From assembly GCA_905178155.1 (NCBI GenBank), contig CAJINV010000028.1:261746-325745 (forward strand): 64,000 nt of DNA, read 5' to 3'. The stretch is from Amoebophrya sp. A120. Its lineage: Eukaryota; Protista; Dinoflagellata. A program made the translations under genes and the position numbers. This document shows, piece by piece, positions 10,482 through 61,300 of the stretch (its first letter is position 1; each line of letters begins with the position of its first letter). The notes under the pieces are model-generated. The model made no database searches. It was not told the DNA's origin and saw nothing but the letters and a program-made list of their open reading frames with translations.

Positions 10482-13400
10482 TTATACTTTGGCTTCCTTT
10501 CCTTTCTTGCCCTTCGTAACCGTTGGTGTTGGTTTTTCATTTTTCATTTGATTCTCCTCCAAATCCAGCTCCAGCAGGGTTTTTTTCGCCGCTTTTTTCC
10601 CGATCGCGTCTTCAGAGGAGGTGGTCTTGGTGTCGTTTCTCTTCTTCCCCAGGGCCGCGGAGGTACAACTAGAGCTCTTAGTTCTACTAATACCGCCGCC
10701 AGTACTCTTTCTAGAAGCGGCAGCGGTTTGTTTCACTGCCACCTCTGTTTTCGACGATTGCTTTGTCGCTTTTCCGCCCGCAATACCTCCTGCAAGAGGC
10801 GTGCTAGAGCCTCTTGCGCCAGACTTTGCTTCCCGTTCCGGTTTGGCCTCTTCGGCAGCAAGAAACGCCTCGAGGACTTTTTCCTTGTTGGTAGTAGATT
10901 TCGATTTTTTGGATCGCGATTGCATCAACATGTCAGCGCCCTTTTTTAGTTCCATCTGGTCTCCCCCGATAGACCTCTGCTCAAGGTGATCGTGCTATCC
11001 TGAGAAAAAACGTACCCACACCAGAGTCAGGATGGGGAATCTGCTAGACAAATCAGCCAGCTTTGGTTGTTTGGCATGACAAGTTTGTCCGCGTAGTGTA
11101 GTGCTGTTTGAGCTAGTTTAGCAGCATTACAGATCTAGTATCTCGTGCTGATTGGAGCATGACAACTATGGTGTGGGTACGTTTTTACTCAGGATACGTG
11201 CTCCAGCTTGCTCATCTTCGAGTTGTTGGCGGTCATGCTTCGTGGTCGTTTTATCACGTTGCCCGAGGATATCCTGAGTAAAAACGTACCCACACCAGAG
11301 TCAGGATGAGGATTTTGCAACACAAACCTAGGAGTTTTGTGAGTCACGCATGACAAGCTGCACTACGCAGTGTAGTGCAGGTTAGCAAGTGCAGCCGCAT
11401 CACAGATTCGTCTGCTCATCCTGTTCACAGCATCACAAATTCCAAAACACGATGGGAAATGGCTCTCATGGGGATGCGCATTACAAGTCTTCCTATCTTT
11501 GCAAATCTGCATTACAACTCTGGGGTGGGGACGTTTTTACTCAGGATAGAGGAGACCGGTGATTCTTCATTCCCCGTGGTCGTGGTCGTGACCATATTAA
11601 GAGGAAAAATCCCCCCTCCCCACATCGCAAAGGTATGCTTCCGAAAATTTGTGTTGCTGATTTGAGACCACAAATCGCCTCTGTCTTGCAAGGAGGCAAC
11701 TCCACAAGCTCCGCAGCATTGCGCAGGCGGTTTGTGATGCTGACGGGCCTCCAGTACGGACGTTCCTCATGCTAGACGCCTAGGCCAAAACCTCTCTACT
11801 TAGGCTTAGTATGGGCCTGCATTTCTCTCCAGCAAGACAGATCTGATTTGTGTACGCAAATCCTGCATCAGAAACTTCGTTTCGATATGGGGAGGGGAGA
11901 TTTTTCTTTTTGATAGACCATCACGGTGCCCGAGGTGGTCATTCTCCTTGGTCGCTTTTGTTCACCAACGAGCACGGTGGCTTGTTCAAACGGGTGCTTT
12001 TCGTTGGCCTCGAAAGTGGAAACTGACCTCTTCGAATTCTTCGTTCCGCTGGCCGCGGCACTGGTGGACTATCAAATGTAAAAATGTCTGGGTCTGGAAG
12101 AGTCCATGTTTGTCATGCGTGTCTGGCACGACTCGCAAATCTGTCATGCACGTTACCCAAGAGCGCCACTTTTCCGTCATGCAGAAACGCAGTTTGTCAT
12201 GCAGAATACAATAGGCAACACCTAGAAGCTCAGAAACTTCTCATGCTGAGCCAGCACTTGTGGCTTCCTCATGATATGCCACCCAGCATCACAAGTTTCC
12301 AGACCCAGACATTTTTACATTTGGTATTCTCCGTGGTCGTTTTATCACGTTGCCTGAGGAGCCCGGGTTTTGTTCACCTCCACCGAGCACGGTGGCTTGT
12401 TCAAGCGGGTGCTTTTCGTTGGCCTCGAAAGTGGAAACTGACTTCTTCGAATTCTTCATTCCGCTGGCCGCGGCACTGGTGGACTATCAAATGGAAAAAT
12501 GTCTGGGTCTGGAAGATGTGTCCATGTTTGTCATGCGTGTCTGGCACGACTCGCAAATCTGTCATGCACGTTCTTACCCAAGAGCGCCACTTTTCCGTCA
12601 TGCAGAAACGCAGTTTGTCATGCAGGATACAATAGGCAACACCTAGAAGCTCAGAAGCTTCTCATGCTGAGCCAGCACTTGTGGCATCCTCATGATATGC
12701 CACGACCCAGCATCACAAGTTTCCAGACCCAGACATTTTTACATTTGGTATTCTCCGTGGCCGTTTTATCACGTTGCCCGAGGAGCCCGAGTTTTGTTCA
12801 CCTCCAACAACTACGGTGGCTTCAAGCGGGTGCTTTTCGTTGGCCTCGAAAGTGGAAACTGACCTCTTCGAATTCTTCTTTCCGCTGGCCGCGGCGCTGG
12901 TGGACGAAGACTGTATCACCGGCTCTATTCTAGCAACAGACGCCTCCGCCTCGCGGCCCTTTTTGCTGGTGGATTTCGATTTTGATTTCGCTCGCCTCAA
13001 GTCAGTATCCTGCTGCTGTTCTTCATCCGCGAAGATGGGGAAGAGCTGCTCATTGCCGTTCTGTTCCAGCACCACGGCCGTGCTCGCTTTCGAGCTGTAT
13101 CAACTGGAAAATGTCTGGGTCTGGAAGAATCCAACTTGTTATGCTGATTTTGGATTCTAAAAAAATCTGTATTGCATGAGCAGCAAAGAGAGTCCAAGTT
13201 TTGCTACACGGAAAGAGCATTTGTCATGCGGCATAGGCATCAGGAAGCCCTCACAAAATCTGTGATGCTAGGGCATGCATCACAGACATCAGGAGTCATG
13301 CAAAATGTGCATGACAAACCTGGCAATCTTCCAGACCCAGACATTTTTACTTTTGATAAGCTGTTGTAGTTGTTCATTTTCCGTTTCATCGCTTTGCCGG

Positions 13401-20521: not shown

Positions 20522-22190
20522 CTTCCCTGCGTTTGCGACGAGGCTGCGAAGAGGCAGTCGTAAACGGAACTGCGACAGAAGAATTCAACCGACGGAATGC
20601 GACTTTCCAGTGGTTTGGAGATGTTGATGTTGCCGGAGTAGCGTTGCCAATTTGAAGTTCCTTCGCACACGAGAGCGACTTTCTTCTTCCTTGAAGCGAC
20701 GATTGCTACCCTGAAGAATCCGGCACGCAGAGCCGACCCTAAAATTTTGTGTTGATCCAAACAGCTATGCAGATGTACAGTATGCTGAGCACGAAAAAAC
20801 CATCTCTGCTATGCAAGACATCCAAATCCAACGATCAAGGGCTGACTGTGACTTGTAAAAATACTAGTGTGAACGTCAGGAACCAACCAGCTATACGTAT
20901 AGATACTTACCGTTAATCTGCCTGCACGAGCACACGAGCTTCGATAAGCTTCTGGTGCGAGAGGTCCTCCGCCTTGAAGTCCACACGATTCTGGTAGTAA
21001 CTGCGAGCGGTGAAAAAGAAACTCCGTCGTCGGCTGCAGGTGCAGCCGCAAGTAATCGCGCGTGCTTTCTGCGTAAAACTTGGACCAACTCCGGCTGTGC
21101 CTTCGTAGCACGCCGGCGCTGCTGGCTTCCCTTCCGAAGTTGGTGCTGCGAAAACGCGACGGCAACGCGAGGTTATCGCCCCGGTGGTGGTGACGATCAG
21201 GGTCACGAGAATACCCCTCCAAGGTCGATAATCCTTTCCTCACATTTGAAATTCCGCACCAATAAGTCAGGTGGTCTGCATGTGATGTCGAGTCGGAGGT
21301 CTTTCAATAATTATGTGATGTCAAGAACGAGAAGGAATTTTGAAAATATTTTGTCGTGTATGATGAGCCAGATGATCATTTTTCATCTGAGTATTCATTG
21401 TGTTCATCACAAATAATAATCAAAACACACAGGAGACTAAACAGCGCGTGCAGCAGCAACGCAATGGGACCCAGAGCATCTTGATCCGGATCTTTCTTCC
21501 TGTGAGGGAGCTCGTGACAGATCGTGAGATCGTGACAGGAAGCGAACGCTGCGGCGAGTAGTACTATGTATACACTTGTCCGTGACCTCCACCGAGATCT
21601 CTACTTATCTTGTCCAGATCTATGGTCTTGAAAACTACGTATACACCTGTCACACTCTAGTACGTGATCCGGGCTTTGAATGGGAAAGAAGACGATCGCT
21701 AGACCAGCAACATCACTTGACAACATCAACAATTTCATCGAAAAATTGGATCTTTCTGGCAATGTCACAACAACATGAAAAATCACCTTGCGCTTCGCAC
21801 CGACAGACTTATGCGGACTCAATCTGTTGCTGTGTTGATACGTATGATTGAATCATGCTGACAGGCACGAAAGTAATGGGAAATTCCTCGCGCCAGTTTT
21901 TATATTTGTGAACCTGAAGAACGCGAAGATTGATACATCTTCGTACTTAGCTTCCAAACTAAACAGCGAGCCTGCACCGTCTCGGAAAATTTTCTCCTGT
22001 GCCATCGCGTGACAAAGAGAGGGGGTCGTCAAGTGTAGTGGTTAGACAGTGTTACGCGTTGAAGATAAAGATATTGAATGAGTATACTATTTTAGTTCCA
22101 GTCAGGATCGCTCGGTTCATTTTTTCCATTGGTAAAGAATGAAAGAGTCATCAAAAATGGATCTTTTCTTTCAAAAACACGGCTCTCTTC

Positions 22191-25133
22191 TCAGTCAGAA
22201 AGACCGGCTGCGCGACGGATGACCCGCTGAGCCTTTTTCGCCAACTCCTTCTGGTGCTTCGTGGGTTTCTTGGCGTACTGTTTGATCACGAGCTTCTGCT
22301 GGCGGTTCGGAATCGACACCGCAATTTTCTTGCCGGACGCGGACATGAGAGGCCACAGGCCAAAGAGTTCTTCCAACGGAGGCGCAGTGAGGCTCTTGTC
22401 GAGGGGCTGAAGATTTGGTCCGCCCTGGGTTATCAAATGTAAAAATGTCTGGGTCTGGAAGAGGAGAAGTTTGTCATGCACATTTTCCATGATCCATGAT
22501 GTCTGTGATGTATGCCATAGCATTACAGATCTTTTGAGCGCCTATCGATGCGCATCCTGCATGACAAATGCCCTGTCCGCGTAGCCAAATTTGACTCCTC
22601 TTGCTGCTCATGCAATACAGATTTTTTTAGCATCCAAATGCAGCATCACAAGTTTGGCTCTTCCAGACCCAGAAATATTTGCATTTGATATGGGTGGCCG
22701 CCACATCAGTGGAACGCAGGTAGTGGTGCGCCTCCACGGTCTGGTATCTCTTGGTCACCTTTCAAACGAAAAAATGTCTGGGTCTGGAAGAATGCATGTT
22801 TGTCATGCTCGTCTGGCGTGACTCTTAAATCTGTCATGCACGTTACCCAAGAGCTCCATTTTTCTGTGATGCAGAAACGCAGTTTGTCATGCAGAATAGG
22901 CAACACCTAGAAGCTCAGAAACTTGTCATGCTGAGTCAGCACTTGTGGCCCCATCATGAGACGCCACCCAGCATCACAAGTTTCATCCAGACCCAGACAT
23001 TCTTACATTTGATATCACCTTGCCCAACTTTTTGTTCGTCCTGATCTGGTCCACAATGTCCGCCATATGAAGTGTAAAAATGTCTGGGTCTGGAAGAATG
23101 CAACTTGTGATGCGCATTTCAGAACACACAAAAATCTCTCATGCATAGGTAGCAAAAGCTGCGCACTTTCTGTCACCAAAATGGGGGATTTGTCATGCGG
23201 GTTCGGCATTGCGGAAGCTTCTCGAAACCTGTGATGCTAGAGCTTCCATGACAGACCTTCTGTGTCATGCAGAAACAGCATGACTCTTCCAGACCCAGAC
23301 ATTTTTACAGTTGATACGCCAAGCGCGGGCGCGAATGCTGCGGCTGGCCGACACACTCGGAAATCCAGTCTCGCCAGAACTTGGGCATCCGTATCAAGTG
23401 TAAAAATGTCTGGGTCTGGAAACTTGTGATGCTGGGTGGCGTCTCATGATGAGGCCACAAATGCTGGCTCAGCATGACAAGTTCCTCAGCTTCTAGGTGT
23501 TGCCTAATCTGCATGACAAACTGCGTTTCTGCATCACAGAAAAGTGGAGCTCTTGGGTAACGTGCATGAGAGATTTGAGGCTCATGGCAGACAAGCATGA
23601 CAAAGATGCACTCTTCCAGACCCAGTCATTTTTGCACTTGATAATCCGCTGGAGGTGCGGAAACCCGGTCCCCACGGCTTTGTCAATCGACGTGCGGAAG
23701 GCAGTCAAGTGGTGCTGCGTCACGTGTTGGGTGTCAATGTTCTCGACGTAGCGGTCCCACTTGTAGCCCAGGGCGCCTTCCCGCTTACAGTCGACGGCGT
23801 GCCAAATCTGCGCGAGAATCATGCCGACCGCAAACACGTCGTTCTTGATGGTGTCGAAGGTCGGACCTCCGGGAGAGAGAAGCGTCTCCCACGTTTTATC
23901 ACAAGAAAAAAGTGTTACAGGTACACACTTGTTGGAGTTTCTGCATCACAAACTTTCGCTGTGTGGCAGGGAAACCTTGTAATGCGAAGATCATGAGGGA
24001 AAACAGGAAGGAAACGAGGCTCCCAAGCATTTCCTGCATGAGAAAGGTTATCTGTGTTGCCGGTCTTGCAACAAAATGTTTAACTGTAAGACTTTTTTCT
24101 TGCGATACATTTCCGGGCTTCCGTAGTACAACGTGCCGGCGGCACACTTCGAAGCTTTCGTGTTTTGCTTGCCCCAAGTTGCTATCCCTTGCAAATGTGT
24201 CTGCGTCTGGAATGTTGCCGGGTTTGTCATGCATGTTTTGCATGGCCGAGGATGTCTGTAATGCACGACCTAGCATCACAGATCTTTAGAGGGCTTCCTG
24301 ATGCCGACTCCGCATGACAAATGCCCTCCCCGCGTAGCACAAACTAGACTCCTCTTGCTGGTCATGCAATACAGACTTTTTTAGAGTCCAAAGTCAGCAT
24401 CACAAGTTCCAACCCTCCAGACCCAGACATTTTTGCATTTGATAGTTGCGCATCCCCAGTCGACCAGTTTTAAATGCCTGGATCTGCTCTCGACCAGGAT
24501 GTTCTCCGGTTTCAAGTCCCCGTGCGAAATACCGTGCTGCTTATGCAACAAGGCCACACTCTCCACTAATTCACAGCTCCACTGCATCGCCATGTCCACC
24601 GGCATGTACTCCTCGTCGACTTCGAGCCACTTCTCGAGAGTCTTTCCCTCTACCGTATCAATTCTCAACCCAACTGTGACTTTCGCGAGCTGAGACGCCG
24701 CAGTCTTGATCGCATTGTTCTCTTCGTCCTCTTCGGGCGGCACCGGTAGCACAGGCTGCTCGTCCGCTTTTTTGGAAGAGGATGCCGCACCGGACATCAG
24801 TGCGGAGTCATCCGTAGAGATGTTGCGCGCCTCCATGTCGTCGTGGTCTTCAGTGTCGGCCTTTGGCACTGGGGCAGCAGCGGATTTCTTCATCACTTTC
24901 TTTAGCGGCGGAGGGACCTCCTCCGCGGCCGCACCTTCGATCAAGGCAGAGGACAAGGGGGCAATCAAGTCGATCACGTCCGGCTGCGCGCTCAGGTACT
25001 CCAAAACCACCCGCTCTACGTACGCGTGTGCGCGGTGTGGCAGGCTCGTGAGCAGGTCTGCCGCGCGGTAGAACTTCCATCCGCCCTTTCTCTCCGTGGT
25101 GAAAGTCGCGAATGCGCCCTTTTTCGCTGACAT
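22191..25133 (-). CDS. Ser/Thr protein kinase (ePK fold), ~473 aa, 6 element introns
   Basis: Spliced product (1422 nt) has HGDLKPENIL (VIb), DWG (VII), GTLYYGSPE (VIII), NDVFAVGMIL (IX) and WISECVGQPQHSRP (XI) in the correct order. Confidence 0.92.
22431..22690. mobile_element. TIR intronic element, family A
   Basis: Family A TIRs; TSD TGGGT. Confidence 0.95.
22760..23014. mobile_element. TIR intronic element, family A
   Basis: Family A TIRs; TSD TCACC. Confidence 0.95.
23066..23316. mobile_element. TIR intronic element, family A
   Basis: Family A TIRs; TSD CGCCA. Confidence 0.95.
23392..23643. mobile_element. TIR intronic element, family A, inverted relative to 22760
   Basis: TSD ATCCG; interior is the reverse complement of the 22760-23014 type. 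Confidence 0.95.
23897..24107. mobile_element. TIR intronic element, family F
   Basis: TATCACAAGAAAAAAGTGTTACAG...CTGTAAGACTTTTTTCTTGCGATA; TSD CGTTT/CATTT. Confidence 0.92.
24183..24444. mobile_element. TIR intronic element, family A
   Basis: Family A TIRs; TSD GTTGC. Confidence 0.95.
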
Positions 25134-26029
25134 AGTTTCCAATTATGAACTGTTAAATTTACAACTCTTGGACGAGGACGAAGATGAGTTGTTCCTTCTT
25201 CTGGGCGATCTTGTTTGAAAAGGTGGACACAGTACTAGAAACAGACTCAGATGATGAAAAAACGACAAGAATTTGCGGTGGTTGAAAGATGAAAGCCCCT
25301 CACTATTTGCATATATTGACGTCAATGACAAGCACATAGGAACGTTTTCTTCTACACTTGTTCTAATCTACTATGGTGTCTGGTTTATTCCAAAGAAAAC
25401 TGCGATTGCCAGTTCTACAATACTAGGCACCACCAGAACTTATAGAAGAAGTGCACAAATCCAATCTGGAACTTGATCCGTTTGATGAGTTTTGCATTTC
25501 TCGCTGCGTCAATCAAAGGCAAGAAAGTCGCGGCGAGAAAGCTCCAAATCAAAAAGTCTTGGACGCAACAAGCCGGGCAAATCATGCACTATTCGTTTTA
25601 TTAGTTGCCCGTGCATTCGTGTTGGTGTTCCTCCTGGACGTGCGCATTCTTCCTCCTTCTCACAAAAAATGGCAAGCAACACCAATGATCGCGAAACATC
25701 AAAACTCATCGATAGATGACGAAGCTCTGCTGATCAAAAGTTCCTTTCTCATGATCGGGGCTACGAACTCTAATGGAGCATGACGCTTCGTGAAGATTGC
25801 GGATCGTCCGGGGTTCTTGATGTGGATGGACATGGATCATTGGATCTTCCTCTACGACATCCTGAAATAAAAGTTGGAACCTAGTCGGCTGGTTCGGCCA
25901 CGGGAACTCGCAAGGCAAAATCCGCATGTTCTGGGCGGCACAAAAAATCGCTCCTCAGAGCAAAACCTTCTCCTGATCTGATTATTGCTGCCGCAAGATC
26001 CCCAGGAAGATCCCCTGGAGACATTGCGA

Positions 26030-39905: not shown

Positions 39906-42900
39906 TCATCGCGTTGGCGCCATTTCAAACGCCCACAGTGAAGCCTTCCCCGGGTAAGCGTGAGTCCGCATTTGGTGTACGATCAGACTCGGCGCCGAGC
40001 AAAAACCGGCGACGATACCATCCCCGTAGCCGATGAACGTTGGCGCAGTTGTATGGAACTGCAAATGTGCCTGGGACTGGAAAAATCCAACTTGTGATGC
40101 GTCCTGCTGTAAACTCACAGAAAAATTTGTCTTGAGCGGCTAGGAAGAGGTGCTCCGTTTGGGTCAATATACTGCAACGGTAATTCTCATGCGGGGTAGC
40201 AGTATGCATTTTTCTATAAGCCCTTCTCAAATCTGTGATGCTATGACCTGCACTCCAGTCCAAAAGGTGCATTCAGAATGGCTGATCGCATTCAGAATCT
40301 GCTGCATGAGAAACTTCTGCACTCGGCCAGACGCAGACCTAGATTTAGATACATTTGCATTCCATAAGTCGCCGCAAGGTACATCTCCAGCGCAAGGAAC
40401 TATCGTACGAAAAAACTGTCTCAGTCTCAACCCCTTGCAGTTTCAGCAAGACAAATTGGCAAACTGTGCAATGGAGATTTTTTGTTTTTTGCTTTGCCAA
40501 AGCAAGAAACAAGAAATCTCTATATGCGTTCAGACAGCAAAAGAAAACACATGACATGTGAAAGACATGTCACGCATGACAAAAAACCGTCTCAAGGTCG
40601 TCAAGGTGTCAAGGTGGAAGTTGCGCATTACTACTTAGCTGAGACTGAGACAGTTTTATCTCACGATACAAGCTCGACCGGATGCAGTGGCTGCTCCAAA
40701 TAACCAGCTCCAATTCGGATAACTGTCATCGGACCTTCACTGCGTTCTTCTTTAGAAGCGGATGATAAATATCCGCTATCTTCGTCTTCATCCGCACGAC
40801 GTGCGGCTGATCCTACCTCGTCGTGGCCGCTTTCAGTGACTCCTCGTTCTGGCGCGCTTACTGCCCGCGCCAGTCGTCCTGGTGGCGGTGAATTTACGGG
40901 AGGGAACGCCGCAATGGCGAGTTGGCCCGCGCTGTCCAGGTAGGCGCGAACGGTAGGGCGGCCGTACTTCGCGTGCATGCGCTGCGCGAAATGCAACATG
41001 TCACGGCTGAAAGGGTCTTCGTTTGACATCACGTAGAGCGCCTGGCGAGGCTGTGCAACAGAATCCGGATCAAATACTGGGGCCTTGTGTTCTCCATTGT
41101 CGTGGTGGGTCTTTGTCTTTGCAGTATTACTTCTAGCGCCAGTCGCAGCTTCTGAAGATTTTGCCGGGCGCTGATCGATGACTTTTTCCAGCTGGCGAGG
41201 CCGGGTCGTGGTGGTGTTCTGAACTAGGAGTGGTCCCTCATATGCGAGTTTCGTTCCCACCAGCTCAGCGAAGCGAATGGGCGTAGCTTCGCGATACTGG
41301 TCAAGTTTCCGCGGTTGTGAGCCGAGTTCGCGGTCTCCGCGGCGCCAGTGTACCGCCGCGTCGAGGTGAACTCCCCGAGCTGCGAGTTTTGCCCGCACTT
41401 CCTCCCCGAGAAAACGCACCTTTTTGCTGAACCGCAAGGCAGACCAAATACTCGGACCGAGGAGCTCCGCACGAAGCCCGCCGTACCGCGCAAAGTGCAG
41501 GCGGACACTTTCGTATTCCTCCAGGAAATAAAAGTACAAACCAATGTGCACAGCGGATTTGAAAAGACCACCGATAGAGGTACTACTTGGCGGATGAATT
41601 ATATCATGATGACCTTCGCGCACAGCAGCAGCTCCCACTCCCTGTGCGTCCACCACAATTTTTTCCGTCTCGTCGACGTCGCCACCGCGTTCATCTGAAA
41701 GGGCGGCGCTAGTAGCGCGCAGGGGGACCCAAGAAGCTGTTGCAATTCTATTTTTATCCTCGCCGGTGCCCTCAGAAGCTGTAGGAGCATCCTCGAAGTC
41801 CCGTAATTGACCCGTTCTTTCTTCGGCTGACGAAATAAATGTATCCGAAAAAGTAACCTCGTCCTCTCGATTCGCGCGCAGCTCCGCCCGCCGGACCGCT
41901 TGCTGGACTGCCATGGAAACCGCCGTTTCGTTCACCTTCCCCGGTTTGGAAAAGTCCTTGGCGCAGGAGAGCTGGCCGATCCGGCTTTTCTCCTTCGACC
42001 CGAAAAATGCGTAGGAGTACGATTCGGAGTTTTCTTGGTCATCGTGCTGTAACGTGGGTGCAACTTGTCTGGCGACGTCTGAAGAGGAGACAACAAAGTT
42101 TTCGCAAACGAATTCTGCAGCCGTGTCGTTCTCCAGCGGCAGATCATCTGTGAGAATCACAGCATCAAATTGTTGCAACTGCTGGTCGGAGTTGTGACCA
42201 GCCTCCTCGAGGAGCCGCATCAACCCGTCGTCCGCAGCCGCACCAGTAGAGCTGTCACCCTTTATTGCATTTCCTCCCGCCACCAAACCGCCCATGCCCC
42301 AGCGTTCCCGCAAGAACCTGTCTAGAAACTGGAGGTCGAAAAGCGCGGAAAGTGGTACGCTTCCACCATTTTTCACGTCGCAGGCCGTGCTATCAGGAGA
42401 AAATCTTCACCATCTTCACAACGTTGTCTTTTGTATTCTGAATCACAACTTTGAGTTGTTTCAAGTTGACATTGTCCAGCATCTGTATCTTCAGGTGTAA
42501 GTAGTCAACAGTCTTCATCACATTGACAGCCTTGCCTTGCAGGTCCAGCATAGAAAATAAGTACGTACATAAAAAACAGCAGGAATCTGTACTTATTCGG
42601 CCTCGATGCTGCATGTTCCCCTCCGTTCTCCATCTCCGTTGACCAGATGCATTTGTTCTTTCTTCAAAGTCGTAACAAGCTACGTAGTTTTGTTACCAAA
42701 TAAACCTTGTGCTTGTGGTGGCAAAAGTAGCCTTGTAAATTTCTTTTCCGTACCTGCCCATCTGGTTCCAGTATTCCCCTGGGTCTTCGTGCGTGCAAGT
42801 CGTGCAGTCGGCCGGGTCGAAGGGATGGTGCTCTGTGTAGCTGAGCCGCGGCAGCTGGAGAAACGCAGTCGGGCCCTGAGCGGCCACGAAACGCAGGGTT

Positions 42901-45894
42901 TCTACGAAATCAAACAACTGGTTACCGAACAATTCTCGGCAAGGCCCCACGATGCCCAGGTAGGAGAATACCACGCGGGGAGAGGAACTAGCCGCTTCGA
43001 CCACGGGTTCGCTTGGTTGATCTCCTCGTGCTCGTGTCGACGAAAGCCGAGCCAAGAACGACCCACTCAGCCAGTTCCGCGGTAGCCAGGAGGTCGTTGA
43101 ACTGCTACTGTCTCGTACAACTTCAGGTTGTTGTAGTTCTTGTGCCGCATGATCTACTGCGGTACTACCAGGTAGTTCTTCACCGCTATAGTCAACCTTT
43201 GTCACGGGTGTCGCGGCGACTGAACTACTTGTCCGCCAAGCGTCGGGATTGAGAAATCCTGGAGCAAGGGCAACGGGCATCAAAGCGTCGGTTGTTCCGG
43301 AAATCACCGCCCTATTGCCTTGTTCTTCCGGAGCTTGTTCTTCAACCTCTTCCGTACTAAGTCGGCCACAGGCGGCAACCACCGCGGCCAAATTGCGTAT
43401 GAAAAATGCGTCCTCTCGCTGGCGCAGCCGCTTTTCTAGCCCAACGCACCTGAGCTTCGAGAGGAAATGACCCGGGGAAAAATTTTCGTCTGGATCGATG
43501 TCTTTCTTCTGGAGATAATGCCTTCCAGCCTCGAGAAAGTCGGCTGCGTAAGCTTCATCGACAGCACCCGCAACCAGGCTGCGGGAGAGGTGTTCCTCCG
43601 ATGCGAAAACCGAGGTCGACTTCTGCGCAACGCTGACTAACGTGAAACTCGCACTAGTGTGGTCCGACAAAAGAAGCTCAAGGAGTTCACTACGCCCAGC
43701 ATCGACGCTCCCTGCGGGGAACGCGGTCGCGGGTAAAAGCAGTGTAGCACCACATTCGCGTGGGTCGAAAAATTTCCTCGGGCACTGCGCTTTGACCTCT
43801 TCGCTGAGAAGAGGCTCGTCGACTGTCGAATGGTGCGCTTTGACCTCTTTGCTGAGAAGAGGCTCGCCGCCCGAATTATGCTGCGGCATCTCGACAAGAC
43901 AGAGGTTGCCGGGTCGTGTGTCACCTTGCGGCCCAGGAGGTCCACTTACTTCAACAGGCACCCCTGTCAACAAACGCAATGTCGCACGAATATTGCGCAG
44001 TTCCTGCTCCTTCAGCCGATGAAGAAGCTCTTCTTGCTCTGGCAGCTCTTGCGTAGTTCCAGTGTGGCCGTCTGCTTCATGCGCCACCGGTAGTTGTTCT
44101 GAGCTCGAGAGGACGGCAACGGTACACAGCGTGTTCAATAAAACGGCGGCGCGTCGCTGTGGCTGTGCGACGTCGAACGGGGACCAATTCCAATAATCAT
44201 ATGCAGCCGCAGGAGCTGCAGATGGTGGGTGGTGCTGTCGTGACCCGCGGTAAAAACTTTTTTTCGTCAAGTACTCCAGGGCCTCTCTGTAGGCCTCGAG
44301 TAGCTCTTGCAAACTGGAGCTAACGAGATGTTGAGAGGAGGACAAGTGTGTCCGATACGGATTTATTTCGGTCTTGTAGTTCCGCTCCGAGACGATTATG
44401 CTGATTTGGCGGGCCTGGAGGTTCTTCTCCTGGTCGGAGGACGCGACTTTGAACTCCCCGGGCCCGGGCCCGGCTGAAAAAGGAAGAGTTTCTGGTATAG
44501 ATTCACTCAAAGGTAGTTCTTCACGAAGATCTGCTTGCCCATCACCCCCATGATCTTCACGCACTAGTACCGCTACAAGCACTTGCGGCCACCGTAAACC
44601 TAAGCTCTGCCGGCGAAGAAAGATGGTCTCCCGGTAGGCTGGCCAGAGCTCTAGCGCGTCTCGGAAGTAGGACGCCAGCAGGCCCAATTGGATGGTATCA
44701 AATGTAAAAATGTCTGGGTCTGGAAACTTGTGATGCTGTGTGGCATATCATGAGGAGGCCACAATTGCTGGCTCAGCATGACAAGTTTCTGAGCTTCTAG
44801 GTGTTGCCTATTCTGCATGACAAACTACGTTTCTGCATGACAGAAAAGTGGGGCTCTTTGTTAATGTGCATGACAGATTTAAGAGTCATGCCAGACAAGC
44901 ATGACAAACTTGCATTCTTCCAGACCCAGACATTTTTACTTTTGATAGATGGCGTCCAGATGCCACGCGCTCCGCTCCAGGTACGCGGCGACATCCCGAG
45001 AAAATTCGGCCTATCCTAAGCAAAAACGTACCCACCCCATAGTCAAGTTGGGAATCTAGCAACACAAATCTCCAAGTTTTGGGAGCTGTGCATGACAAGT
45101 TTTCCTCTGCAGTGTAGTGCTGGTTGGCAGGGGAAGCCGCATGAGAAAGCCATTCTCTCGTCCCGTTTGCAGCAGTACAAATTCCAAAACACGACTGAAA
45201 ATGCCTCTCATGGAGGCGCGCACTACAACTGTTCCTGTCAGTGCGCATTTGCATGACAACTCTGGGGTGGGGATGTTTTTACTGAGGATACGGCCCCGCA
45301 GTGCGTTATGTACTCCAGCAAATGATCGACCACTAGTTCAGATCCTCGTCTCCCAGCAGGGATCACTCGCTGTCGCGTGTTCCCGATAACCCAGTTTGCC
45401 GTGGCGTCGCGGCGGGAGAGATCTTCTTCCCCGCCGTCGCCGCTGCTGGTGGCACGGTAGTGTTTCCACGAAGCTGCTGCACGACCTGCAGCGCCGGCCG
45501 ACGTGGCCGAACCGTCGGGATGTAGTTGACCTGCAGCTGCAAAAATGGCCACATCTTCTGGACCATTCTCCAAAGCGGTACAGACGGTCCTTGCGTCAAC
45601 GACCGTCGCTTCATTCTCGGATCCTTGTGGGGCGGTCGCATTGATTTTTTTGCCAGGGTAATTAGCGAAACGGGATTTATTCCCTGCCCTTCTCGCGCCT
45701 GCCACTTCATCTTGCGAAACCTCGGATCGTGCGTAATCCTCCTGGTCATGCTTGGCCGCCGTACTACTGGACCACGACGAGGTAGTGGACCACGACGAGG
45801 GGGAAAAGACAACATGAGCGTTCGGTCCTGCACGCCACCAGACATCGCAGAAAGCTTGGTGGTCAAGCAAGCACGTTGTCAGAGGGCTTGGCAT
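39906..45894 (-). CDS. Large protein (~1512 aa) with a C-terminal GT-B O-fucosyltransferase-like domain; start uncertain
   Basis: Motifs AVHWRRGD, LYVMSNE and, only after removing two elements, ALEMYLAATAPTFIGYG...S..SLIVHQMR. Four element introns plus one GT-AG intron give 4539 nt in frame. Confidence 0.7.
40052..40366. mobile_element. TIR intronic element, family A
   Basis: Family A-like TIRs; TSD AGTTG/AGTCG. Confidence 0.88.
40401..40668. mobile_element. TIR intronic element, family E
   Basis: TATCGTACGAAAAAACTGTCTCAGTCTCA...TGAGACTGAGACAGTTTTATCTCACGATA; TSD decayed; frame restored. Confidence 0.88.
42390..42705 (-). other. GT-AG intron (316 nt) whose 3' end looks like an element terminus
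   Basis: AG|GTTTAT...TTTTCTCCTGATAG|C; joins two long ORFs in frame. Confidence 0.65.
44696..44947. mobile_element. TIR intronic element, family A
   Basis: Family A TIRs; TSD GATGG. Confidence 0.95.
45012..45290. mobile_element. TIR intronic element, family B
   Basis: Family B TIRs; TSD CGGCC. Confidence 0.95.
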
Positions 45895-52398: not shown

Positions 52399-55300
52399 TC
52401 ATTCCGCCTCGGCAGGAGCGCCATGCAGTTCGCGATATCGGTTGGAGTACTGCTGCCGGAGCAGCCCCCGCCACGTTTGCATGGTGGCCGCCCGCTTTTC
52501 CGCGTTTGCGTTCCGCATGACCGCCCGCTTTTCCGTGAGCAACTGCCGGTCTGACACCAGCTTGCACAATTCCAGGATGGTCCGGAACACGATGATGCCC
52601 GGCGATTTCTCAGCGTCGTACATGGAGCTGGTCTGCAGCCACTGGAGTTTTTTGACCCGGGTGGAGAAGTCCAGGGCACCCGCGGACCCCGTGGATCCGA
52701 GGTTCCCGTCGTCATTGAAGACCAGGTCCGCCAGGTACCTCTATGGATTGCAAAAGTGTCTGGGTCTGGAAAGTTGTAATGCTGGGTGGCGTATCATGAG
52801 GATTGCACAAGTGCTGGCTCAGCATGACAAGTTTCTGAGCTTATAGGTGTTGCTTATTCTGCATGACAAACTGCAGCTCTGCATGACCGAAAAATGGAGC
52901 TCTTGGGTAACGCGCGTGACAGATTTAAGAGTCATGCCAGACTAGCATGACAAATCTCGCAATCTCCCCGACCCAGACATTTTTGCAATTGATAACCTCC
53001 GGCTCGGCACGAACATGGCCAGCGACAGGGAGTTATCCTGTGCAAAAGTATCGCACTCGTACTAATTGCCTTTATGCATTACAAATCTCCATCCCAAGGT
53101 AAAACAGCATGACAAAATCCATTTGTCATGCTGAGCTAATTTGTATTGCAATTTATACTACTACGATGCTTTTGCAGTTCATAGGAGTACAGCTCGTGAA
53201 AGGCGTAGGTTTCGAACTCGTGCGGCACGTACACGATGGCTGTAAAGCGCCGCTTGATTTCTGCGAAACTCATGCCCTTGCCCGTCACCAGGTGTGCCTG
53301 TTTGCCGCACGAAGGTGTGCTGCGCAGCAGGAGCACGATCTGGAGCCCCAACCGGAGGGCATTGTTCCCCCGCGCCCAAATGCCGACGTCCTCCAGGTCA
53401 GCGGAAGCGGAAGATTTCTTGAGGTTGTTTGGTATGTCCGCAGCAATGGAAACGGCATACTGCTCTCCGTTGGCGTCCCGTGTCAGTACGGTGACGCGGT
53501 CACGAGGGCCGCTGGTTGTGCTACTTTCCGGCGTGCTATTCATTTTACTGGAAGCCTCGTCGCGGTCACCAGGCTCTCCCGGAGCGTTCTCCCCTGGAGG
53601 GAGTCGTAGTCGTTCTTGTGAGGATATAATTTCACCATCGGGTCGTGCTGGAGCCGACGATTGTTCACTAGTCTCCTGCCCACGCAGTGCTTCCTCCGCT
53701 GGTCGGAAAAGAAGATCGCCCTCGGCATTCCGTACTGCGATGCTGGATCGGCTTGGCGATGTACTAGTTGACGCAGACGCTGCGTTTTTGATACTATTTC
53801 CGCCTTCATCCTCTTCCATCTCTGCAAACCTTGTGTCGTCCAAGTGTAGCATCAGTGGCTGCAGTATCCAAGAAAAAAACTGTGTAAGTGTAAATTTGTG
53901 TTGCAGAAAATGCCAAACTGTTACACTTGTCGTGCTGGACATGCATCAGAGGCAATTTTCGTGCGTGTTTTCACGTACTAGCCACGCATGACAAGTTTTC
54001 TGTGTTATGCAGAGCAAACTTGTGATGCTATTCCTCAAAGAAACTTACACTTACACAGTTTTTTGCCTGGATATGCAGCACCGGGACAAGGGCCGGAGAT
54101 GAGGTAGCCGCGTCTTTCAGTTGCTCGGTCTCCTGCAAAATCCGCGACAAAATCAGGTTCGAAGTGGAGACGATGGCCGTACCCGCGGCTCCGCTGTGCA
54201 CCAAGGTTCGGCCTAAGCTCCAAAAGCGTCGCCATATCCCGAGTAAAAACGTGTCCATCCGATAGTCAAGATGGGAAATCTGCTAGACAAATCAACAAGC
54301 CCTGGTTGTTGCGCATGACAAATTTGGGCGCGCAGTGTAGTCGTGTTTACCTAGTGCAGCGACATCACAGATCTTGCACATCATGCTGATTCGGGCATCA
54401 CAAATCTCAAAACACAACTAGAGAGTGCTTGTCATGGGTCTCCGCACGAGAAGCGCTTTGAGGATGAATGCAGATTTGCATTACAACTCATCTGCAATCG
54501 AGGTGACGTTTTTACTCTGGATACGCCAGGCCGCAGATTCGCCGGCTGCGGCAGACGCGTCCGTGGCGGAGTTGAGAAAAACCGCCTTCGTGCACCGGCC
54601 TTCCACGAAGCACGGGGATACAGTGGCTTCTCTTTCTGGTATTATAGTAGCTGACTCAGATGCAGCTCCTGGGTATACGTCGTTTGGGGCGAGAAAGTTT
54701 GGCGAAATTCCAAACCAATTCGACTGGATTAGCAAGACTGTGTTAGTTCTACCTCCACTGGTGCCGTGCTGCTGGCTCTGCTTGTTTTTAACCGCCGTCT
54801 GTTGCTGGAAATGTTGCAGCAGGTATTTGTTCCAGACCTTGTTCAACTCCTGTTGTAATAACGCACACAAAAAGAACGGCGTGCTGCAGGAGGTAACCAC
54901 GAGCAGCTCAATAAAGGTCGTGCTGGTGCTGTTGGCGTCCTTAATCATAGAAGTATCCCTTGCGCGAGACATGACTTCGTCTTCCCACCAGTTTTCGATG
55001 ATTCTGCTTACGTGTGTTTCCACCACGTCCAACTGTGACAATCCGTTATGGAAGTGTCAGGATTGAAATCGACGAAGTTGAAATAACTTGTAATGCATAA
55101 TATCCATACAAATTGGACCCGCATTTTCTAGTCGGTGCATGACAAATTTTGTCCATGCCGGAAGCCAGTTTGTCATGCTGTTCAGGGCAAAGGGGCTCCG
55201 CTCTGTGATGCTAATCAGCAGCCCAAGTCCCGACCCTTACCAGCACTACAATCTGCCTCCCTTGCGTCCTCTGCAATAGAGGCAATCTTTGCGTTGCATT

Positions 55301-58300
55301 TTCTGCATGACAACCTATTTGAATTTTGACGATTTCAATCCTGACACTCCCATAACCGTGGTTTCCGCCGTAGTGCGGATCGTTTACGCTTTCGTCCTAT
55401 TAAGAGGAAAAATACCCCCTCCCCATATCGAAAAGGTATGTTTCCGGAAATTTGTGTTGCTGATTTGAGACCTCAAATCACGTCTGTCTTGCAAGAAGGC
55501 AACTCCACAAGCTCCGTAGCATTGTGCAGGCGGTTTGTGATGCTGATGGGCCTACAGTGCGGACGTTTCTCATGCTAGACGCCTAGGCCAGAACCTCTCT
55601 ACTTAGGCTTAGTACGGGGCTGCATTCCTCTCCAGCAAGACAGATCTTATTTGTGTACGCAAATCCTGCATCAGAAACTTCGTTTTGATATGGGGAGGGG
55701 GGATTTTTCCTTTTGATACGTCCACCTCGACAAACAAGGCCCCCAAGTCGTCCAGTTCGTTGCCGCAAAACCGGGGGTTGGGGTTCACGCAGCGACAGAC
55801 CTCCGGCGCGTTATGACAGTGCACAACTACTCCCCCTCCCTCTCATTTGTCATGCATACTCGCCGACTGCACCACATCAAAAACCTTTGCACCGTTGCCG
55901 CAAGCAGCTTCGGACGCAGACGATCTAGTCATGCAAAATCCTAACTCCAGTCCCTGCCTTGCCCTTGTGGCACTGTTTGCACGACAAATTCTGGAGGCCC
56001 AGACAGTACTAGACTAGGCACACAAATTTCCCCTGCATAGGCTCCACTATTGCTGTTCATGCAATGCAAATGAGGGGGAGGGGAGTTGTGAATTGTCATA
56101 GGCATGGCGGCACTGGTAAAACCCACCCCAGAACTGCTCCTCGTCGCGGCCCTCGACAAAGACCTGCTCTTCCACTAATGCCCGTCGCACCGCCAAATGT
56201 GCCTCCTGGGCGAAGGGCGCGTGCGTGCCGAAGCTGGCAAGCAGGGTCCTTCGATTCTTCGCAGTATTGATCGACCGGTGGCGACCACTGCTTTCTTCAC
56301 CGTAATTCGCCGTTCCACGACCACGGACCTCAGAATTCTTATTATCCACAGCATATCCTTGTGCCGCGGAAGTAGATGGTCCAGCAGAAGTGCGAAATAA
56401 GCTAGAAGTTTCTCCCCTGGCTAGCGCCGCATTGTACTCCGTAGCGGTCATGGGCCAAACGATGCCCGGGACTAGCGTGAGGCGGAAGAAAGAACCAGTG
56501 CGCGACGCTGGGACCATTTCGGAAATCGAGGAAGCTGCAGCAGTGCTTAAAGACAATAAGTAATCTGGCTCTTTATCTTCGGCACTTCTCGAGCCACCTG
56601 CACCTTCCGGGAGTGGCCCAGCACTTCTGCATAATCTCTTCGTTTCACGCGGCGGCAAAGCGTAGTTGGTACTACTATCCGCGACACGCAGACTACTCCC
56701 TTTTTCCCCGTGGACTAGCGCGCCACGGCTCACTGAGGTAGCGTTTTTCCGCAGCATCGCCGCTCCCCTCTCCTCAACGTCTGCTGTGGTCCCCGTCAAA
56801 TCTTCACCCGCTGCATTCGCGGACAACATCCCAGCATCTTCGCCCTCTTGCCGCTTTTCCTCAGGGGGGACGGGCTGCAGTACTTGGTACGATTTGTCGA
56901 AAAACAGCGCGCCGGCCCGCGTAGCTGCGCGGACTACGTGAGTGCTTTTTTCTGCTATAGCACTGGTCGCCGCACGACTACCGTCGCAGGTGATTGAGGC
57001 AGAAACGGTGCCGTCTCCAACATCTACTCCGGTAGACGTTTCACTGGTTGTACTGGTGGCATCACCAGCTGCGGTTCCGTCGCCGGCACCCCCACCGCTG
57101 CTCAGCCACACTAGGTCGAAGTGTGCCTGCATATGAACTGCAAAAGTATCGTACTCGTACAAATGCATGACAAATTGTCTCAGCATGAGAAACAAAATTT
57201 GTAATGCGGATTTACGTTGAGAAAAAAATTTGTAATGCATGATTGCAATACGAGTACGATACTTTTGCACAGGATACTGCAAGTACCGCTGCAAAACCGT
57301 GAGGTCCGCCGAGTCCGCAGGGTGGTCGCGGTCTCGGTGCATCGCCCAGAGGCTGTAGAACGTGCCCTATTGTAAGGAAAAATCCTCCCTCCCCATATCG
57401 AAAAGGCAAGCCGCAGAAAATTTGCAATGCTGATTTGTGACCGCAAATCGCTTCTGTCTTGCAAGAAGGCAAGTCCGCAGGCTCCGCCGCATTACGCCGG
57501 CGGCTTGTGATGCTGTTGGTCCTACAGCGTAGACTTTTGCCATGCTGGGGGCCTACGTCAAAACCTCGCTGCCCCGGGTTGGCGTATGCCTGCGGTTCTC
57601 TACTGCAAGACAAATCTGATTTGTGTACGCAAATCCAGCATCACAAACTTCCTTTTCGGTATGGGGAGGGGGGATTTTTACTCACGATATGCCCTGCAGC
57701 GTGTTCTCATGGAACAGCTGCTTCGGCACGAACCCCTTCTCCCGCCACCACTCAAAAAGGTATTTACCGTCCATTTGAAGCTGCTGCAGGTTCGGACTTT
57801 GATGCGGGGCTCCCGTGTAGTCGGATATCAACTGTACAAATGTCTGGGTCTGGCAGAGTGCCAGACTTGTCATGCAGGTTTTCCATGACCCATAAGGTCT
57901 GGTATGTAGGACATAGCATGACAGATTCTGTGAGAATTCTATCATGCCTATCCTGCATGAGAAACTGCCTCTCGATCAGGTCAAAAGTTGACAGCTTTTG
58001 GTAATCATGCAACACAGATTTCTACATGATTCAGATTTAGCATGGGAAGTTCCTTTGTTCCAGACCCAGACATTTTTGCATTTGATATCGGATTCCGCTT
58101 CGCGAACATCAAACACCGCGGCACCGTAGAGGCGCTCCACGCGCAGCCTGTGTTCGTGTTGCAGCAAGTGCGCAAAACTGGAGTGAATCAGGTACGCATT
58201 GGGAAAGTGGTCGTCCGCGTGCAGGCGGAACAGCACGTACCCGTATCCTGTGCAAAAGTATCGTTGTACTCGTATTGCAGACATGCATTTACCAATCTTT

Positions 58301-61300
58301 TTTTTGAGGTCAATCTCCATTACAAATTTTATTTCTCATGCTGAGGAAATTTGTAATGCATTTATACGAGTACGATACTTTTTCAATTCATAACCCGTAG
58401 GGCGTCGCGATGCGCAGAATCTCCCCGAGAGAGCAGCCCCGGATCATGTTCTTGAGCAAGGAGGAATACTGCGAGCCCACATCCGTGTACACCGTGGGGA
58501 GCCAGGAACCAAACCCGATATCCGGAGGCAGAAAATAGGCTATGATTTCCATGGCGATCAGCAGAGTTCTCGTGCGCATCTCCGTGTGCAGCTTGTGCAG
58601 AATCTTTGACAGATACTCACAATCGCGGTTGTCGAGATCAATCTTCAACAGCGTGATGGGTGCGGCACTATGGAGCTGCGCCGGCGTAGTTCCTTTGATA
58701 TTCACAGAAAACGCGTCGTGGTTCTTCTGCGTCGTGGCCGCGGTGGTCGTCCTCAACGCGGTCCTGCGGAAGAGCGGGTGCTCGTTCAGAAAGCTGTCCA
58801 CCGTCTCCGGACTCACGTAGTCCGTCACGAGATGAAGGAGCTTACGTTCTTGCGACGAAGATGACGTCTTTGCGGTCTTCGCATCTCGTGCCGGTCCTGC
58901 TTGCTGGTGTACAAGAACATCTGTGGTTCCGCTAGATGAAGAAGTTGTAGCTTCTTTAGTACCTCCTGTTGCTTCAGATGACACAAAGGTCCGGCTTTTG
59001 AAGATCTGATCGCGCAACACCGACACGCGATCGGGGTCGCCTTCGAACAAAACGCCCCCGGCGCCAGCGAATTCCACCATGGTGTGTGCTTATCGTACGA
59101 AAAAAGTGTTTCACTGTAAGGATTTTGCAGGTTTTGCATCACAAGTTTGTTCTACATGACAGAGAAAATTTGCCATGCAAGGTTCCTGAGGGAAAACACA
59201 GCTAAAAATCCCCTGTCTTGCATGTGTAGCAAGACAAACACTTGTGACTGTGAGATGCAATTTCTGCATTACAAGTTTCCAGTGAAACAGTTTTTTCTGG
59301 CGATAGTGCTGGATCCACGTCCCAGTCGGATCGGTCGTCCTCTTCCATCACTCCATATCATGAGTAAAACATCTCCACACCAGAGTCAAGATGCGGATTT
59401 TGCAACACAAACCTAGGAGTTTTAGGAGTCACGCATGACATAAACAGACTGTGCTACTACGCATGACAAGTTTCAGTCCGTAAGGTAGTGCAAGTTAGCA
59501 AGGAAAGCCGCATCACAAATCGACCTTCTCATCCTGTTTACAACATTACAAGTTCCCAAACACGATTGAAAATGCCTGTCATGGGGTTGCGCATCACAAA
59601 TGTTCCTGTCATGGCAAATCTGCATGACAACTCTGGGGTGGGGACGTTGTTACTTAGGATACTCCAGCCCCCAGATTTATCACGAACCGGTCCGCCGCGC
59701 GGGTCGCACCAGCGTCCTCCGCGGCCCTGACAATGTCGAACAAGTTTTGCTGCTTCTGTAGAAGTTGTAATCCGCCTCGCTGCAAGGTTGATGCTGCGCC
59801 CGCGCCCTGTTTCCTCGTCGTGTGCGGTTCTTGCGCTGGTGCCTCGTTTTCAACAGTAGACGGAGTAGTTGTTGACCAGTCAATCAGCTCTCGATACACG
59901 TCGGAGGGAGGAGCGGCAGGAGGAGCACCCCGAGCTACAGGTGGCTCCTGCTCAGGACCGCTTATCATTCCTGTCGCATTTTGATTTTCTTCTTCCACCT
60001 CCGCGCCTGCTGTGCCATTCTTCGGCAGACCGAGAAAGTCCTCGACGATCGTGGCCGCGTCGGCCTCGGTGAGGAACTGAAAGTGCTTTCTGCTGGGCAA
60101 CACGGCGTATCGTACGGCTTCCAGAATGTTCCACAGCAGCTCCTTGCGGTGCGGAAACCGCTCGCTTTCGAACCGGTCGTGCTCTAGCACCGAGGGGAGC
60201 AGGAACCCCGCGCAGCTCGGCGGGCTGACGGCGTGCGAGGCCCAGAACTCCTCCCACGGGTTGGGCAACCCCGACTGGCGCTCGTACTCATCCAGCGCCT
60301 CGTTTTCGCCTTCCTGCTCCGCGGCTTCTAGCGGGTCCTCGCTTCTCCGCTCCACCTATGAATTGCAAAAGTAGTATCGTACTCGTATCAATGCATTACA
60401 AATTTCCTCAGCATGAGGGATAAAATTCGTATATGCTGATTTACCTTAAGAGAAAGCTTTGTCGTGATGCATGATTGCAATACGAGTAAGTACGATACTT
60501 CTGCACAGGATACCACCTCCCGTAGCCGGTGGGGGACCTGCACCAGTGCCTTCTGGACGTGCCGGTTCTGCTCCCCGTGCTCGAAGAGGCGCGCAAACGC
60601 CCGGATGGAGGCCGTTTCCGGCGCGCGGGGGCCATGGTGGCGAAAGAAGGCCGCCAGCTCGTCATACAGTGCGGTGCACACGTGGTGCAGGTGCGTCAGC
60701 ACCTGCTTCTTCTCGTTGCGGACCGCGTGCTCCTCCGTGAGCACCGTGGCTCCGTCCAACCGGTCCAGGATCGCTTCGTTGCGGAGAATGATTTCTATGT
60801 TGGTCTCGCCAACCTCGTTCAAAACTTCGTCAAAGGACAGGGAGCTGAAATAGGTCATGTTGCTCTTTCGCTTCTCGTATGAAATGCAAAAGTATCGCAG
60901 TCGTATAAATGCATTACAAATTTCTTCAGCATGAAAAATGAAACTTGTAATGCTGAGTTTCCTTGAGAACAAGATTTGTAATGCATGACTACAATACGAG
61001 TACGATACTTTTGCACAGGATATCTCGTCCATCAGGTCGTGGTGTTCGTCGACCAGGTCGTCCAAGTGCGTTAGCTGCACGTTCCAGTGCATTTTCAGAC
61101 ACACGTACTGCCCGAGCCAGCAGGTAAGCTCGAACACCAGCTGTGCGATCTTCTCCAGAAATTGCCTCGCCCGCGGGTACACCTGGATCTGATGATGAAG
61201 ACTGGAAAACTCGAAAAACTCGTTCGAACAAACCATATCGTCCCCCTCCGGATCCAGTATCTCGCTGGCGTTCTCTTCCCCGCGCAAGTCAATTTGGGCG

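What the first reader, a model, noticed from the sequence alone, without database searches (positions are those of the whole stretch)
22760..23643. The same element works as an intron in both orientations
Within one gene, the 23392 element is the reverse complement of the 22760 type. The same holds for 44696 and 52742 versus 12070, and for family D 53034 and 58244 versus 57132 and 60878. All host genes are on the minus strand. Spliceosomal donor, branch and acceptor signals are directional, so this argues that the symmetric TIR stem is the recognition signal.
Basis: partly seen in the sequence, partly recalled or inferred. Interest (0 to 1): 0.85.

Follow-up and report, generated by a model that had tools for sequence, protein, structure and literature searches.

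The report
Parasite's mobile introns work both ways
In a marine parasitic dinoflagellate, small transposon-like inserts already known as odd introns are cleanly missing from the RNA whichever way round they sit, likely because their two matching ends offer the same motif and hairpin to a splicing machine that likely still reads in one direction.

Summary
Observation confirmed. The window is Amoebophrya A120-type DNA. The repeats are the known TAT...ATA introner elements with 5-bp direct repeats (PMC7789003). 23392 is 89.8% identical to the reverse complement of 22760. One RNA contig lacks both elements and four neighbours: spliced length 1623 = contig length 1623, giving a 476-codon kinase frame. 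RNA joints also remove family D both ways. All 7 families occur both ways among 236 of 265 strand-called copies.

The inference does not follow: an inverted repeat shows the same end sequence as well as the same stem in either orientation. Either-orientation introners are already known in Polarella with GT/GC/GA-type sites. I found no G.U bias, stability bias or compensatory excess. Four imperfect direct repeats share one asymmetric cut, 1 nt before TAT and 4 nt after ATA, which would mean a directional machine like Euglena's motif-plus-stem code. 22760 itself has a GT-AG option. The scan noted similar hairpin introns on other DNA.

The parts
22191..25142 (-). Host protein-kinase gene, 476-codon stop-to-stop frame after removal of six elements
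   Evidence: PF00069 E 5.9e-13 on the first exon frame; RNA contig X3 record 12
22760..23014 (.). Family A element, 255 bp, 5-bp direct repeat on both sides; GT-AG cut possible in the repeat
   Evidence: absent from the RNA contig by length sum
23392..23643 (.). Family A element, 252 bp, opposite orientation to 22760; no GT-AG option
   Evidence: RNA piece starts at 23644
22431..22690 (.). Family B element, 260 bp, no GT-AG option
   Evidence: RNA piece ends at 22425
23066..23316 (.). Family B-related element, 251 bp, opposite orientation to 22431 and 24183; no GT-AG option
   Evidence: absent from RNA by length sum
23897..24107 (.). Family G element, 211 bp, imperfect direct repeat; RNA keeps 4-5 nt of the upstream copy
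   Evidence: Piece end 23890 matches simulated k=4-5 only
24183..24444 (.). Family B element, 262 bp
12070..12326 (.). Family A element, same orientation as 22760; flanks do not match; tandem copy at 12485-12750
   Evidence: 542-codon frame after removing length+5; no RNA joint seen
44696..44947 (.). Family A element, same orientation as 23392
   Evidence: removed in deposited protein P0026
52742..52994 (.). Family A element, same orientation as 23392; GT-AG cut possible
   Evidence: RNA joint skips 258 = 253+5
53034..53183 (.). Family D element, 150 bp
   Evidence: RNA joint skips 155
58244..58392 (.). Family D element, same orientation as 53034
   Evidence: RNA joint skips 154
60878..61022 (.). 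Family D element, opposite orientation; frame-neutral yet removed
   Evidence: RNA joint skips 150
60357..60512 (.). Family D element, same orientation as 60878; GT-AG cut possible
   Evidence: RNA joint skips 161
57132..57276 (.). Family D element, same orientation as 60878; removal not shown
   Evidence: no joint; frame-neutral and open in one frame
55812..56100 (.). Element with imperfect direct repeat; RNA places the cut inside the repeat (k=2-4), no GT-AG
   Evidence: Joint 55807 to 56102, both=2
55047..55354 (.). Element missed by my first scan; imperfect repeat; k at most 4
   Evidence: Joint 55042 to 55356 skips 313
40401..40668 (.). Element with imperfect repeat; deposited protein fits k=2-4 only

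Best explanation
These are Amoebophrya introner elements (TAT...ATA inverted ends, 5-bp direct repeat) that are removed from the RNA together with one repeat copy in either orientation, likely by a directional machine that reads the shared end motif held together by the hairpin and likely cuts 1 nt before TAT and 4 nt after ATA. SHOWN: element anatomy; both orientations at no significant bias; removal of element length + 5 from RNA contigs; retention in the DNA run; mostly no GT-AG option. INFERRED: (1) copies spread as non-autonomous DNA transposons, which insert either way; (2) the interior is irrelevant, and the ends supply a motif (TAT, G at position 9, AAA at 11-13) plus a sequence-diverse inner helix that bridges the two ends; (3) the cuts fall in host sequence at a fixed asymmetric distance from TAT/ATA, so the machine is directional although its substrate is symmetric; (4) the machine is somewhat more likely a modified U2/U5/U6 spliceosome in which the helix stands in for U1 than a separate Euglena-like system (my judgement, about 55:45, untested).
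For: RNA: contig X3 record 12 lacks six elements and the spliced length equals the contig length, 1623. All 11 joints listed skip element length + 5. An X3 piece also stops at a canonical GTAAGT donor at 19257 on the minus strand, so the run behaves as RNA. Orientation counts among 236 family-assigned of 265 strand-called copies: A 29:16 (p 0.07), B 41:46, C 18:16, D 13:17, E 8:11, F 6:7, G 3:5. 247 of 265 have no GT-AG at any of six cut positions. Register k (nt of the upstream repeat kept in the exon): 23897 k=4-5, 55812 k=2-4, 55047 k=0-4, 40401 k=2-4; only k=4 fits all four. All 9 predominant A120 non-canonical motifs in Table S4 begin with N-T, and the text places the commonest direct repeat 4 nt upstream of the 5' end (PMC7789003). 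Positions 1-3 and 11-13 are 92-100% conserved, while positions 4-10 vary about as much as the interior (families A-D). Inner arms are 73-91% complementary across unrelated arm sequences, and the inner helix is predicted with P>0.5 in 97.5% of 120 sampled copies. In Euglena, motif, pairing and asymmetric spacers are all required (PMC12501133 sections 7, 8, 10).
Against: k=4 rests on four junctions: one read from a contig piece end rather than a listed joint, one from a gene model. The paper calls the splice position relative to the hairpin variable (Fig. 3 legend), and aligner placement inside a perfect repeat is arbitrary. The 5' and 3' end logos are symmetric overall. Two directional hints did not replicate in 102 further copies with weaker strand calls: GT-AG options 18 sense vs 3 antisense became 2 vs 8, and position-3 changes 14 vs 3 became 1 vs 1. 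No sign of selection on RNA pairing was found, so the helix may be only a by-product of transposon ends. Conservation of the end motif may serve a transposase rather than splicing. The RNA contigs come from one sample, and the runs are only guessed to be RNA.
Confidence: 0.55

Rival explanations
1. One reading: the symmetric stem alone is the recognition signal, and sequence does not matter.
For: Six unrelated inner-arm sequences are all self-complementary. Strong hairpins form in both orientations (z -6.4 and -4.9). End logos are symmetric. Arms match within elements more than in shuffles within family and orientation (1160 vs 1077+/-15 at positions 4-10), though subfamilies can explain that.
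Against: All families keep TAT, G9 and AAA whatever the inner arm. G.U 114 vs A.C 121 on the sense strand at positions 1-13 (p 0.70), and 79 vs 100 at positions 14-24. Sense and antisense duplex energies are equal (-38.98 vs -39.06, p 0.38). There is no compensatory excess in 43 near-neighbour pairs. Family D pairs only 111 of 210 positions at 4-10, and its terminal triplet is predicted mostly unpaired, yet it is cut exactly. In 9 of 127 A/B copies the arms have unequal spacing yet still fit length+5.
Confidence: 0.2
2. Sequence only: a relaxed spliceosome reads N-U-A-U as a donor and the A three bases from the element end as a branch point 6 nt from the 3' cut, and the stem is incidental.
For: With k=4 the intron starts N-T-A-T, like the U of GU and the yeast donor GUAUGU (motif recalled). 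Family A/B/E 3' ends TTGAT fit the yUnAy branch consensus (motif recalled). Position-3 changes total 14 at the 5' end vs 4 at the 3' end in 366 copies (p 0.03), the opposite of what pairing would favour. Nearly all spliceosome subunits are present, but U1 was not found (PMC7789003 section 10).
Against: Many ends read GGATA or CCATA, which do not fit yUnAy. The putative branch A is predicted paired in most copies. The position-3 bias did not replicate. A 3-4 nt motif alone carries too little information to mark an intron.
Confidence: 0.2
3. The elements are removed from DNA (like ciliate internal eliminated sequences), or the contigs come from element-free alleles, so no RNA splicing is involved.
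For: The ends are TA-bounded inverted repeats, and X3-X6 are only guessed to be RNA.
Against: Contigs of the DNA-like run X1 go unbroken from unique sequence into the elements, e.g. record 7, 20173-22456, depth 28. X3 also skips from a canonical donor. The listed pieces of X3 records 10 and 12 have 0 other letters, so they are not a diverged strain.
Confidence: 0.03

Closest known systems
Introner elements among the non-canonical introns of Amoebophrya A120 (Farhat et al. 2021, PMC7789003; read: abstract, passages, sections 10, 11, 12, 16, supplement legends, rows of Tables S4 and S7)
   Same: TAT + 7 variable nt + at least three A; 3-5 nt direct repeats; about 240 nt; hairpin proposed to join the exon ends; co-oriented genes. 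A window protein is 100% identical to a protein named Amoebophrya sp. A120. These are the same elements.
   Different: The paper does not report element orientation against gene strand: all 4 main-text and 3 supplement hits for 'orientation' concern genes. It calls the splice position variable, whereas four junctions here share one asymmetric register. Figures S19-S25 are images I could not see and may bear on both points.
Either-orientation introners of Polarella glacialis and Aureococcus anophagefferens (Roy et al. preprint 10.1101/2020.10.14.339549, passages; Huff et al. 2016 not held, known only through that preprint)
   Same: DNA-transposon-like elements with target duplications that create introns in either orientation.
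   Different: They recruit GT/GC/GA donors and AG-type acceptors from the element or the duplication, and some classes are biased to one orientation. Here 247 of 265 have no GT-AG option and no family is significantly biased.
Euglena nonconventional introns (Nomura et al. 2025, PMC12501133; abstract, passages, sections 7, 8, 10)
   Same: Self-complementary end triplet (CAG/CTG there, TAT/ATA here), inner pairing, and cuts at asymmetric spacers outside the motif (3 and 5-6 nt there; likely 1 and 4 here).
   Different: Different motif and lineage. No purine rule is evident at the start of the 3' exon here: repeat position 5 is mixed. The Euglena code is shown by knock-in; here it is only inferred.
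Fritillaria borealis transposon-derived non-canonical introns (seen only through review PMC11282704 passages and the search listing of PMC13326754)
   Same: MITE-like origin with inverted and direct repeats, and non GT-AG ends.
   Different: It has dominant AG-AC/AG-AT ends and is reported to be spliceosomal. Here no dinucleotide dominates except the T at +2 under k=4.

Membership tests
Amoebophrya A120 introner elements | Inverted repeat starting TAT, 7 variable nt, at least three A | tested here: met
   End logos of 265 copies: TAT 95-100%, A at 11-13 94-99%
Amoebophrya A120 introner elements | 3-5 nt direct repeat at the boundaries | tested here: met
   Perfect 5-bp repeat in 218 of 265; the repeat was part of my detection score
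Amoebophrya A120 introner elements | Repeated families removed from RNA at non GT-AG ends | tested here: met
   7 families; 18 window elements absent from RNA contigs, 15 of them without a GT-AG option
Amoebophrya A120 introner elements | Organism | tested here: met
   PC4 frame 306-968 is 100% identical over 94% to a protein named Amoebophrya sp. A120
Canonical U2 spliceosomal introns | GT/GC-AG ends | tested here: not met
   GT-AG possible in 18 and GC-AG in 5 of 265; excluded at 55812 and 55047 by the RNA junction
Spliceosomal introns (any) | Lariat with 2'-5' branch, snRNP dependence | not testable with these tools
   Only contigs covered the loci
Euglena-type nonconventional introns | CAG/CTG-type motif with 3 and 5-6 nt spacers | tested here: not met
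   The motif is TAT/ATA; it works like this class at most
Euglena-type nonconventional introns | Pairing of the ends required for splicing | tested here: inconclusive
   Helix predicted; no wobble bias or compensatory excess
MITE / non-autonomous TIR transposon | Short, no coding capacity, inverted ends, target duplication, either orientation | tested here: met
MITE / non-autonomous TIR transposon | Autonomous partner with a transposase | not tested
   No whole genome held; PMC7789003 section 16 reports putative transposases only in A25, not in A120

The most novel reading that the evidence does not exclude
Amoebophrya has a second, orientation-blind splicing code, 5'-N-TAT...helix...ATA-NNNN-3', with a fixed asymmetric ruler that exactly undoes a 5-bp target duplication in any host sequence. 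It would be convergent with Euglena's N3-CAG...CTG-N5 code and run without U1, making every insertion of tens of thousands of elements a perfect intron whichever way it lands.
Probability: 0.35. Interest if true: 0.75.

Novelty: already known. Interest (0 to 1): 0.45.

Why it matters
How Amoebophrya removes the 60% or more of its introns that lack GT-AG is stated as open (PMC7789003 section 16). Two additions make it testable with existing RNA data. First, near-equal use of both orientations removes the interior from the list of signals. Second, imperfect direct repeats can read out the true cut register, here pointing to 1 nt/4 nt. If that holds, it explains why these elements can saturate coding sequence (11 in one 1518-codon frame) and gives a gene-finding rule. 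The elements, the hairpin idea and either-orientation introners in general are already in print.

Tried and rejected
No whole genome was held, so the statistics use 131 loci from one metagenome scan. The 80 loci listed lie on contigs with one accession prefix, share no long unique DNA with the window and carry copies of the same families at up to 97.6% identity. They gave 382 unique elements: 222 strand-called, 160 not. Of those 160, 102 got weaker calls and 58 none. In the window 43 of 51 elements were used; 8 without a clear frame were dropped (30404, 47233, 47590, 48339, 48687, 49475, 49735, 50406). Viral contigs: 0 matches. Rfam: 0 matches in the window. No listed holder is on record as RNA. 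Raw-read RNA runs X12 and X13 laid only 10 and 127 reads, almost all only partly on the stretch, so excision efficiency by orientation could not be measured. X1 joints were swamped by repeat artefacts. No joint was listed for 57132, 57368, 59091, 59356 or 61344 (low cover). Two protein searches for gene models over other imperfect repeats found nothing. Stop-codon test of the register: L020:4888 excludes k=0; L015:945 excludes k=2-5, but it is another kind of element (repeat match 1 of 5, different ends) and was set aside. This is the one row against k=4. GT-AG enrichment (18 vs 9.5 expected, p 0.008) and the position-3 bias were not replicated and are not relied on. Unequal arm spacing lay in the 3' arm in 8 of 9 cases, too few to use. 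Literature searches that found no statement on orientation of Amoebophrya elements; in-text look-ups. Most subscription papers are not held.

Full report
What is there. The window holds at least 53 elements of 145-344 bp (51 catalogued, plus 55047 and about 49053 found later). They begin TAT and end ATA, carry about 30-bp inverted ends, and are mostly flanked by a 5-bp direct repeat. A PC4-domain frame at 306-968 is 100% identical to a protein named Amoebophrya sp. A120. The end motif is the one described for A120 introner elements: TAT, seven variable bases, three or more A (PMC7789003 section 11). So the elements are a known system, and that paper already proposes that the inverted repeats form hairpins joining the exon ends.

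Orientation check. 23392 is 89.8% identical to the reverse complement of 22760 against 58.8% forward. The other named pairs behave alike (alignments). Interiors are not palindromic (self reverse-complement score 18-90 against 150-548 forward), so orientation is well defined. Removing each element plus one repeat copy opens long minus-strand frames: 476 codons over six elements at 22191-25142, 1518 over eleven at 55211-62404, 928 over 44696, 578 over 52742 and 53034, and 542 over 12070. Removing one base more or less shortens the open stretch at most junctions but not at all (not at 52742 or 53034).

RNA evidence. In run X3 (guessed RNA), one contig of 1623 nt lies in pieces at 21972-22425, 23644-23890 and 24444-25115 with no other letters. 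The gaps of 180 and 70 nt equal what is left after removing four and two elements plus one repeat each, and the predicted total is 1623. The individual joints of 22760 and 23066 were not displayed, so compensating offsets are not formally excluded. In 52200-62600, all 11 listed joints skip element length + 5, including family D in both orientations (53034 and 58244 against 60357 and 60878). X3 also has a piece ending at a canonical GTAAGT donor, and the DNA-like run X1 continues into the elements, so removal is at the RNA level. X3-X6 are one sample, and contigs give no efficiency. Deposited protein P0026 removes 44696, 45012, 40401 and 40052 in the same way. 57132 is not shown to be removed, and 12070 rests on frame only.

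How general. From 131 loci I found 382 unique elements (0 found in 126,815 shuffled bases). 222 could be strand-called with a codon model trained on this window, and no locus of 74 had mixed calls. With 43 window copies, 236 of 265 fell into seven families, each present both ways with no significant bias. 247 of 265 allow no GT-AG cut. The cleanest non-canonical both-way cases are therefore 23066 against 22431/24183 and 53034/58244 against 60878.

Does this prove stem recognition? No. An inverted repeat gives the same end sequence as well as the same stem in both orientations, so a directional reader would also work both ways. This is known for Polarella and Aureococcus introners with GT/GC/GA-type sites (preprint 10.1101/2020.10.14.339549, passages). 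I tested for selection on RNA pairing and found none. Sense-strand G.U versus A.C mismatches were 114 to 121, and interior substitution counts in families A-D leaned at most slightly toward wobble-forming changes. Duplex energies were equal on both strands. Compensatory changes among 43 near-neighbour pairs did not exceed within-pair swaps. Arms do match better than in family-wide shuffles, but subfamilies and transposon biology explain that. Positions 4-10 are about as variable as the interior. In family D the two ends differ constitutively at positions 4-7, and the terminal triplet is predicted mostly unpaired, yet excision is exact. In favour of a stem role, unrelated inner arms are all 73-91% self-complementary and both orientations of the focal pair fold strongly (z -6.4 and -4.9).

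Where the cut falls. A perfect repeat hides the cut, but imperfect ones reveal it. Simulated joints reproduce all 11 listed joints and the five piece ends compared. They restrict the number k of upstream-repeat bases kept in the exon to 4-5 at 23897, 2-4 at 55812 and 0-4 at 55047. The gene model gives 2-4 at 40401. No cut flush with an element end fits all four; k=4 does. The intron would then read N-TAT...ATA-NNNN, asymmetric about the stem. The paper's Table S4 lists nine predominant A120 motifs, all starting N-T, which agrees but may reflect aligner choice. At 23897, k=4 also gives Met rather than Thr after the kinase SPE motif; that a hydrophobic residue is usual there is recalled. Against this: four junctions are few, one locus of another element type excludes k=2-5, and the paper describes the position as variable. 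Two other hints of direction, GT-AG options on the sense strand and changes at position 3, appeared in the 265 set but not in 102 further copies.

Mechanism and comparison. The best fit is motif plus helix read by a directional machine with a fixed ruler. This parallels Euglena, where knock-ins show that the CAG/CTG motif, inner pairing and asymmetric 3 and 5 nt spacers are each needed (PMC12501133 sections 7, 8, 10). Whether the machine is a U1-less spliceosome (subunits present, U1 not detected) or a separate system cannot be told here. I give 0.55 to this model, 0.2 to stem only, 0.2 to sequence only, and 0.03 to DNA-level removal.

Verdict. The system is already described, and either-orientation introners are known elsewhere. 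My searches found no statement of orientation independence or of a fixed register for Amoebophrya, but the paper's supplementary figures S19-S25 were not visible to me. Earlier scan notes on hairpin introns in other genomes were not checked and are not counted as support. Interest 0.45.

Noticed in passing
window 11956-12924: Tandem duplication carrying elements 12070 and 12485, whose two flanks do not form a direct repeat, yet length+5 keeps a 542-codon frame. Likely recombination between elements; if spliced, a matching repeat is not needed for removal.
   Followed up: partly
window about 49053-49290: Element of a further family with different inner arms, missed by my scan; copies occur in several loci at 69-88% identity.
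   Followed up: partly
window 25922-27408: Tandem array of about 120-bp units with an internal inverted repeat, between genes.
   Followed up: no
window 37376-37938: Array of 39-bp units in two opposite-facing halves.
   Followed up: no
window 63230-64000: Tandem array of 181-bp units.
   Followed up: no
window 306-968: Gene with two PC4 (PF02229) domains on the minus strand.
   Followed up: partly
elements 22760, 23392, 53034, 57132: A short internal motif of about 8 nt recurs several times in both directions inside the elements, like subterminal transposase-binding repeats.
   Followed up: partly
L015:945-1271: A different element with long perfect inverted ends and no 5-bp repeat.
   Followed up: no
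window 15168-15886 and 16439-17135: A roughly 700-bp direct duplication inside the repetitive Lys/Ser/Ala-rich gene region.
   Followed up: no
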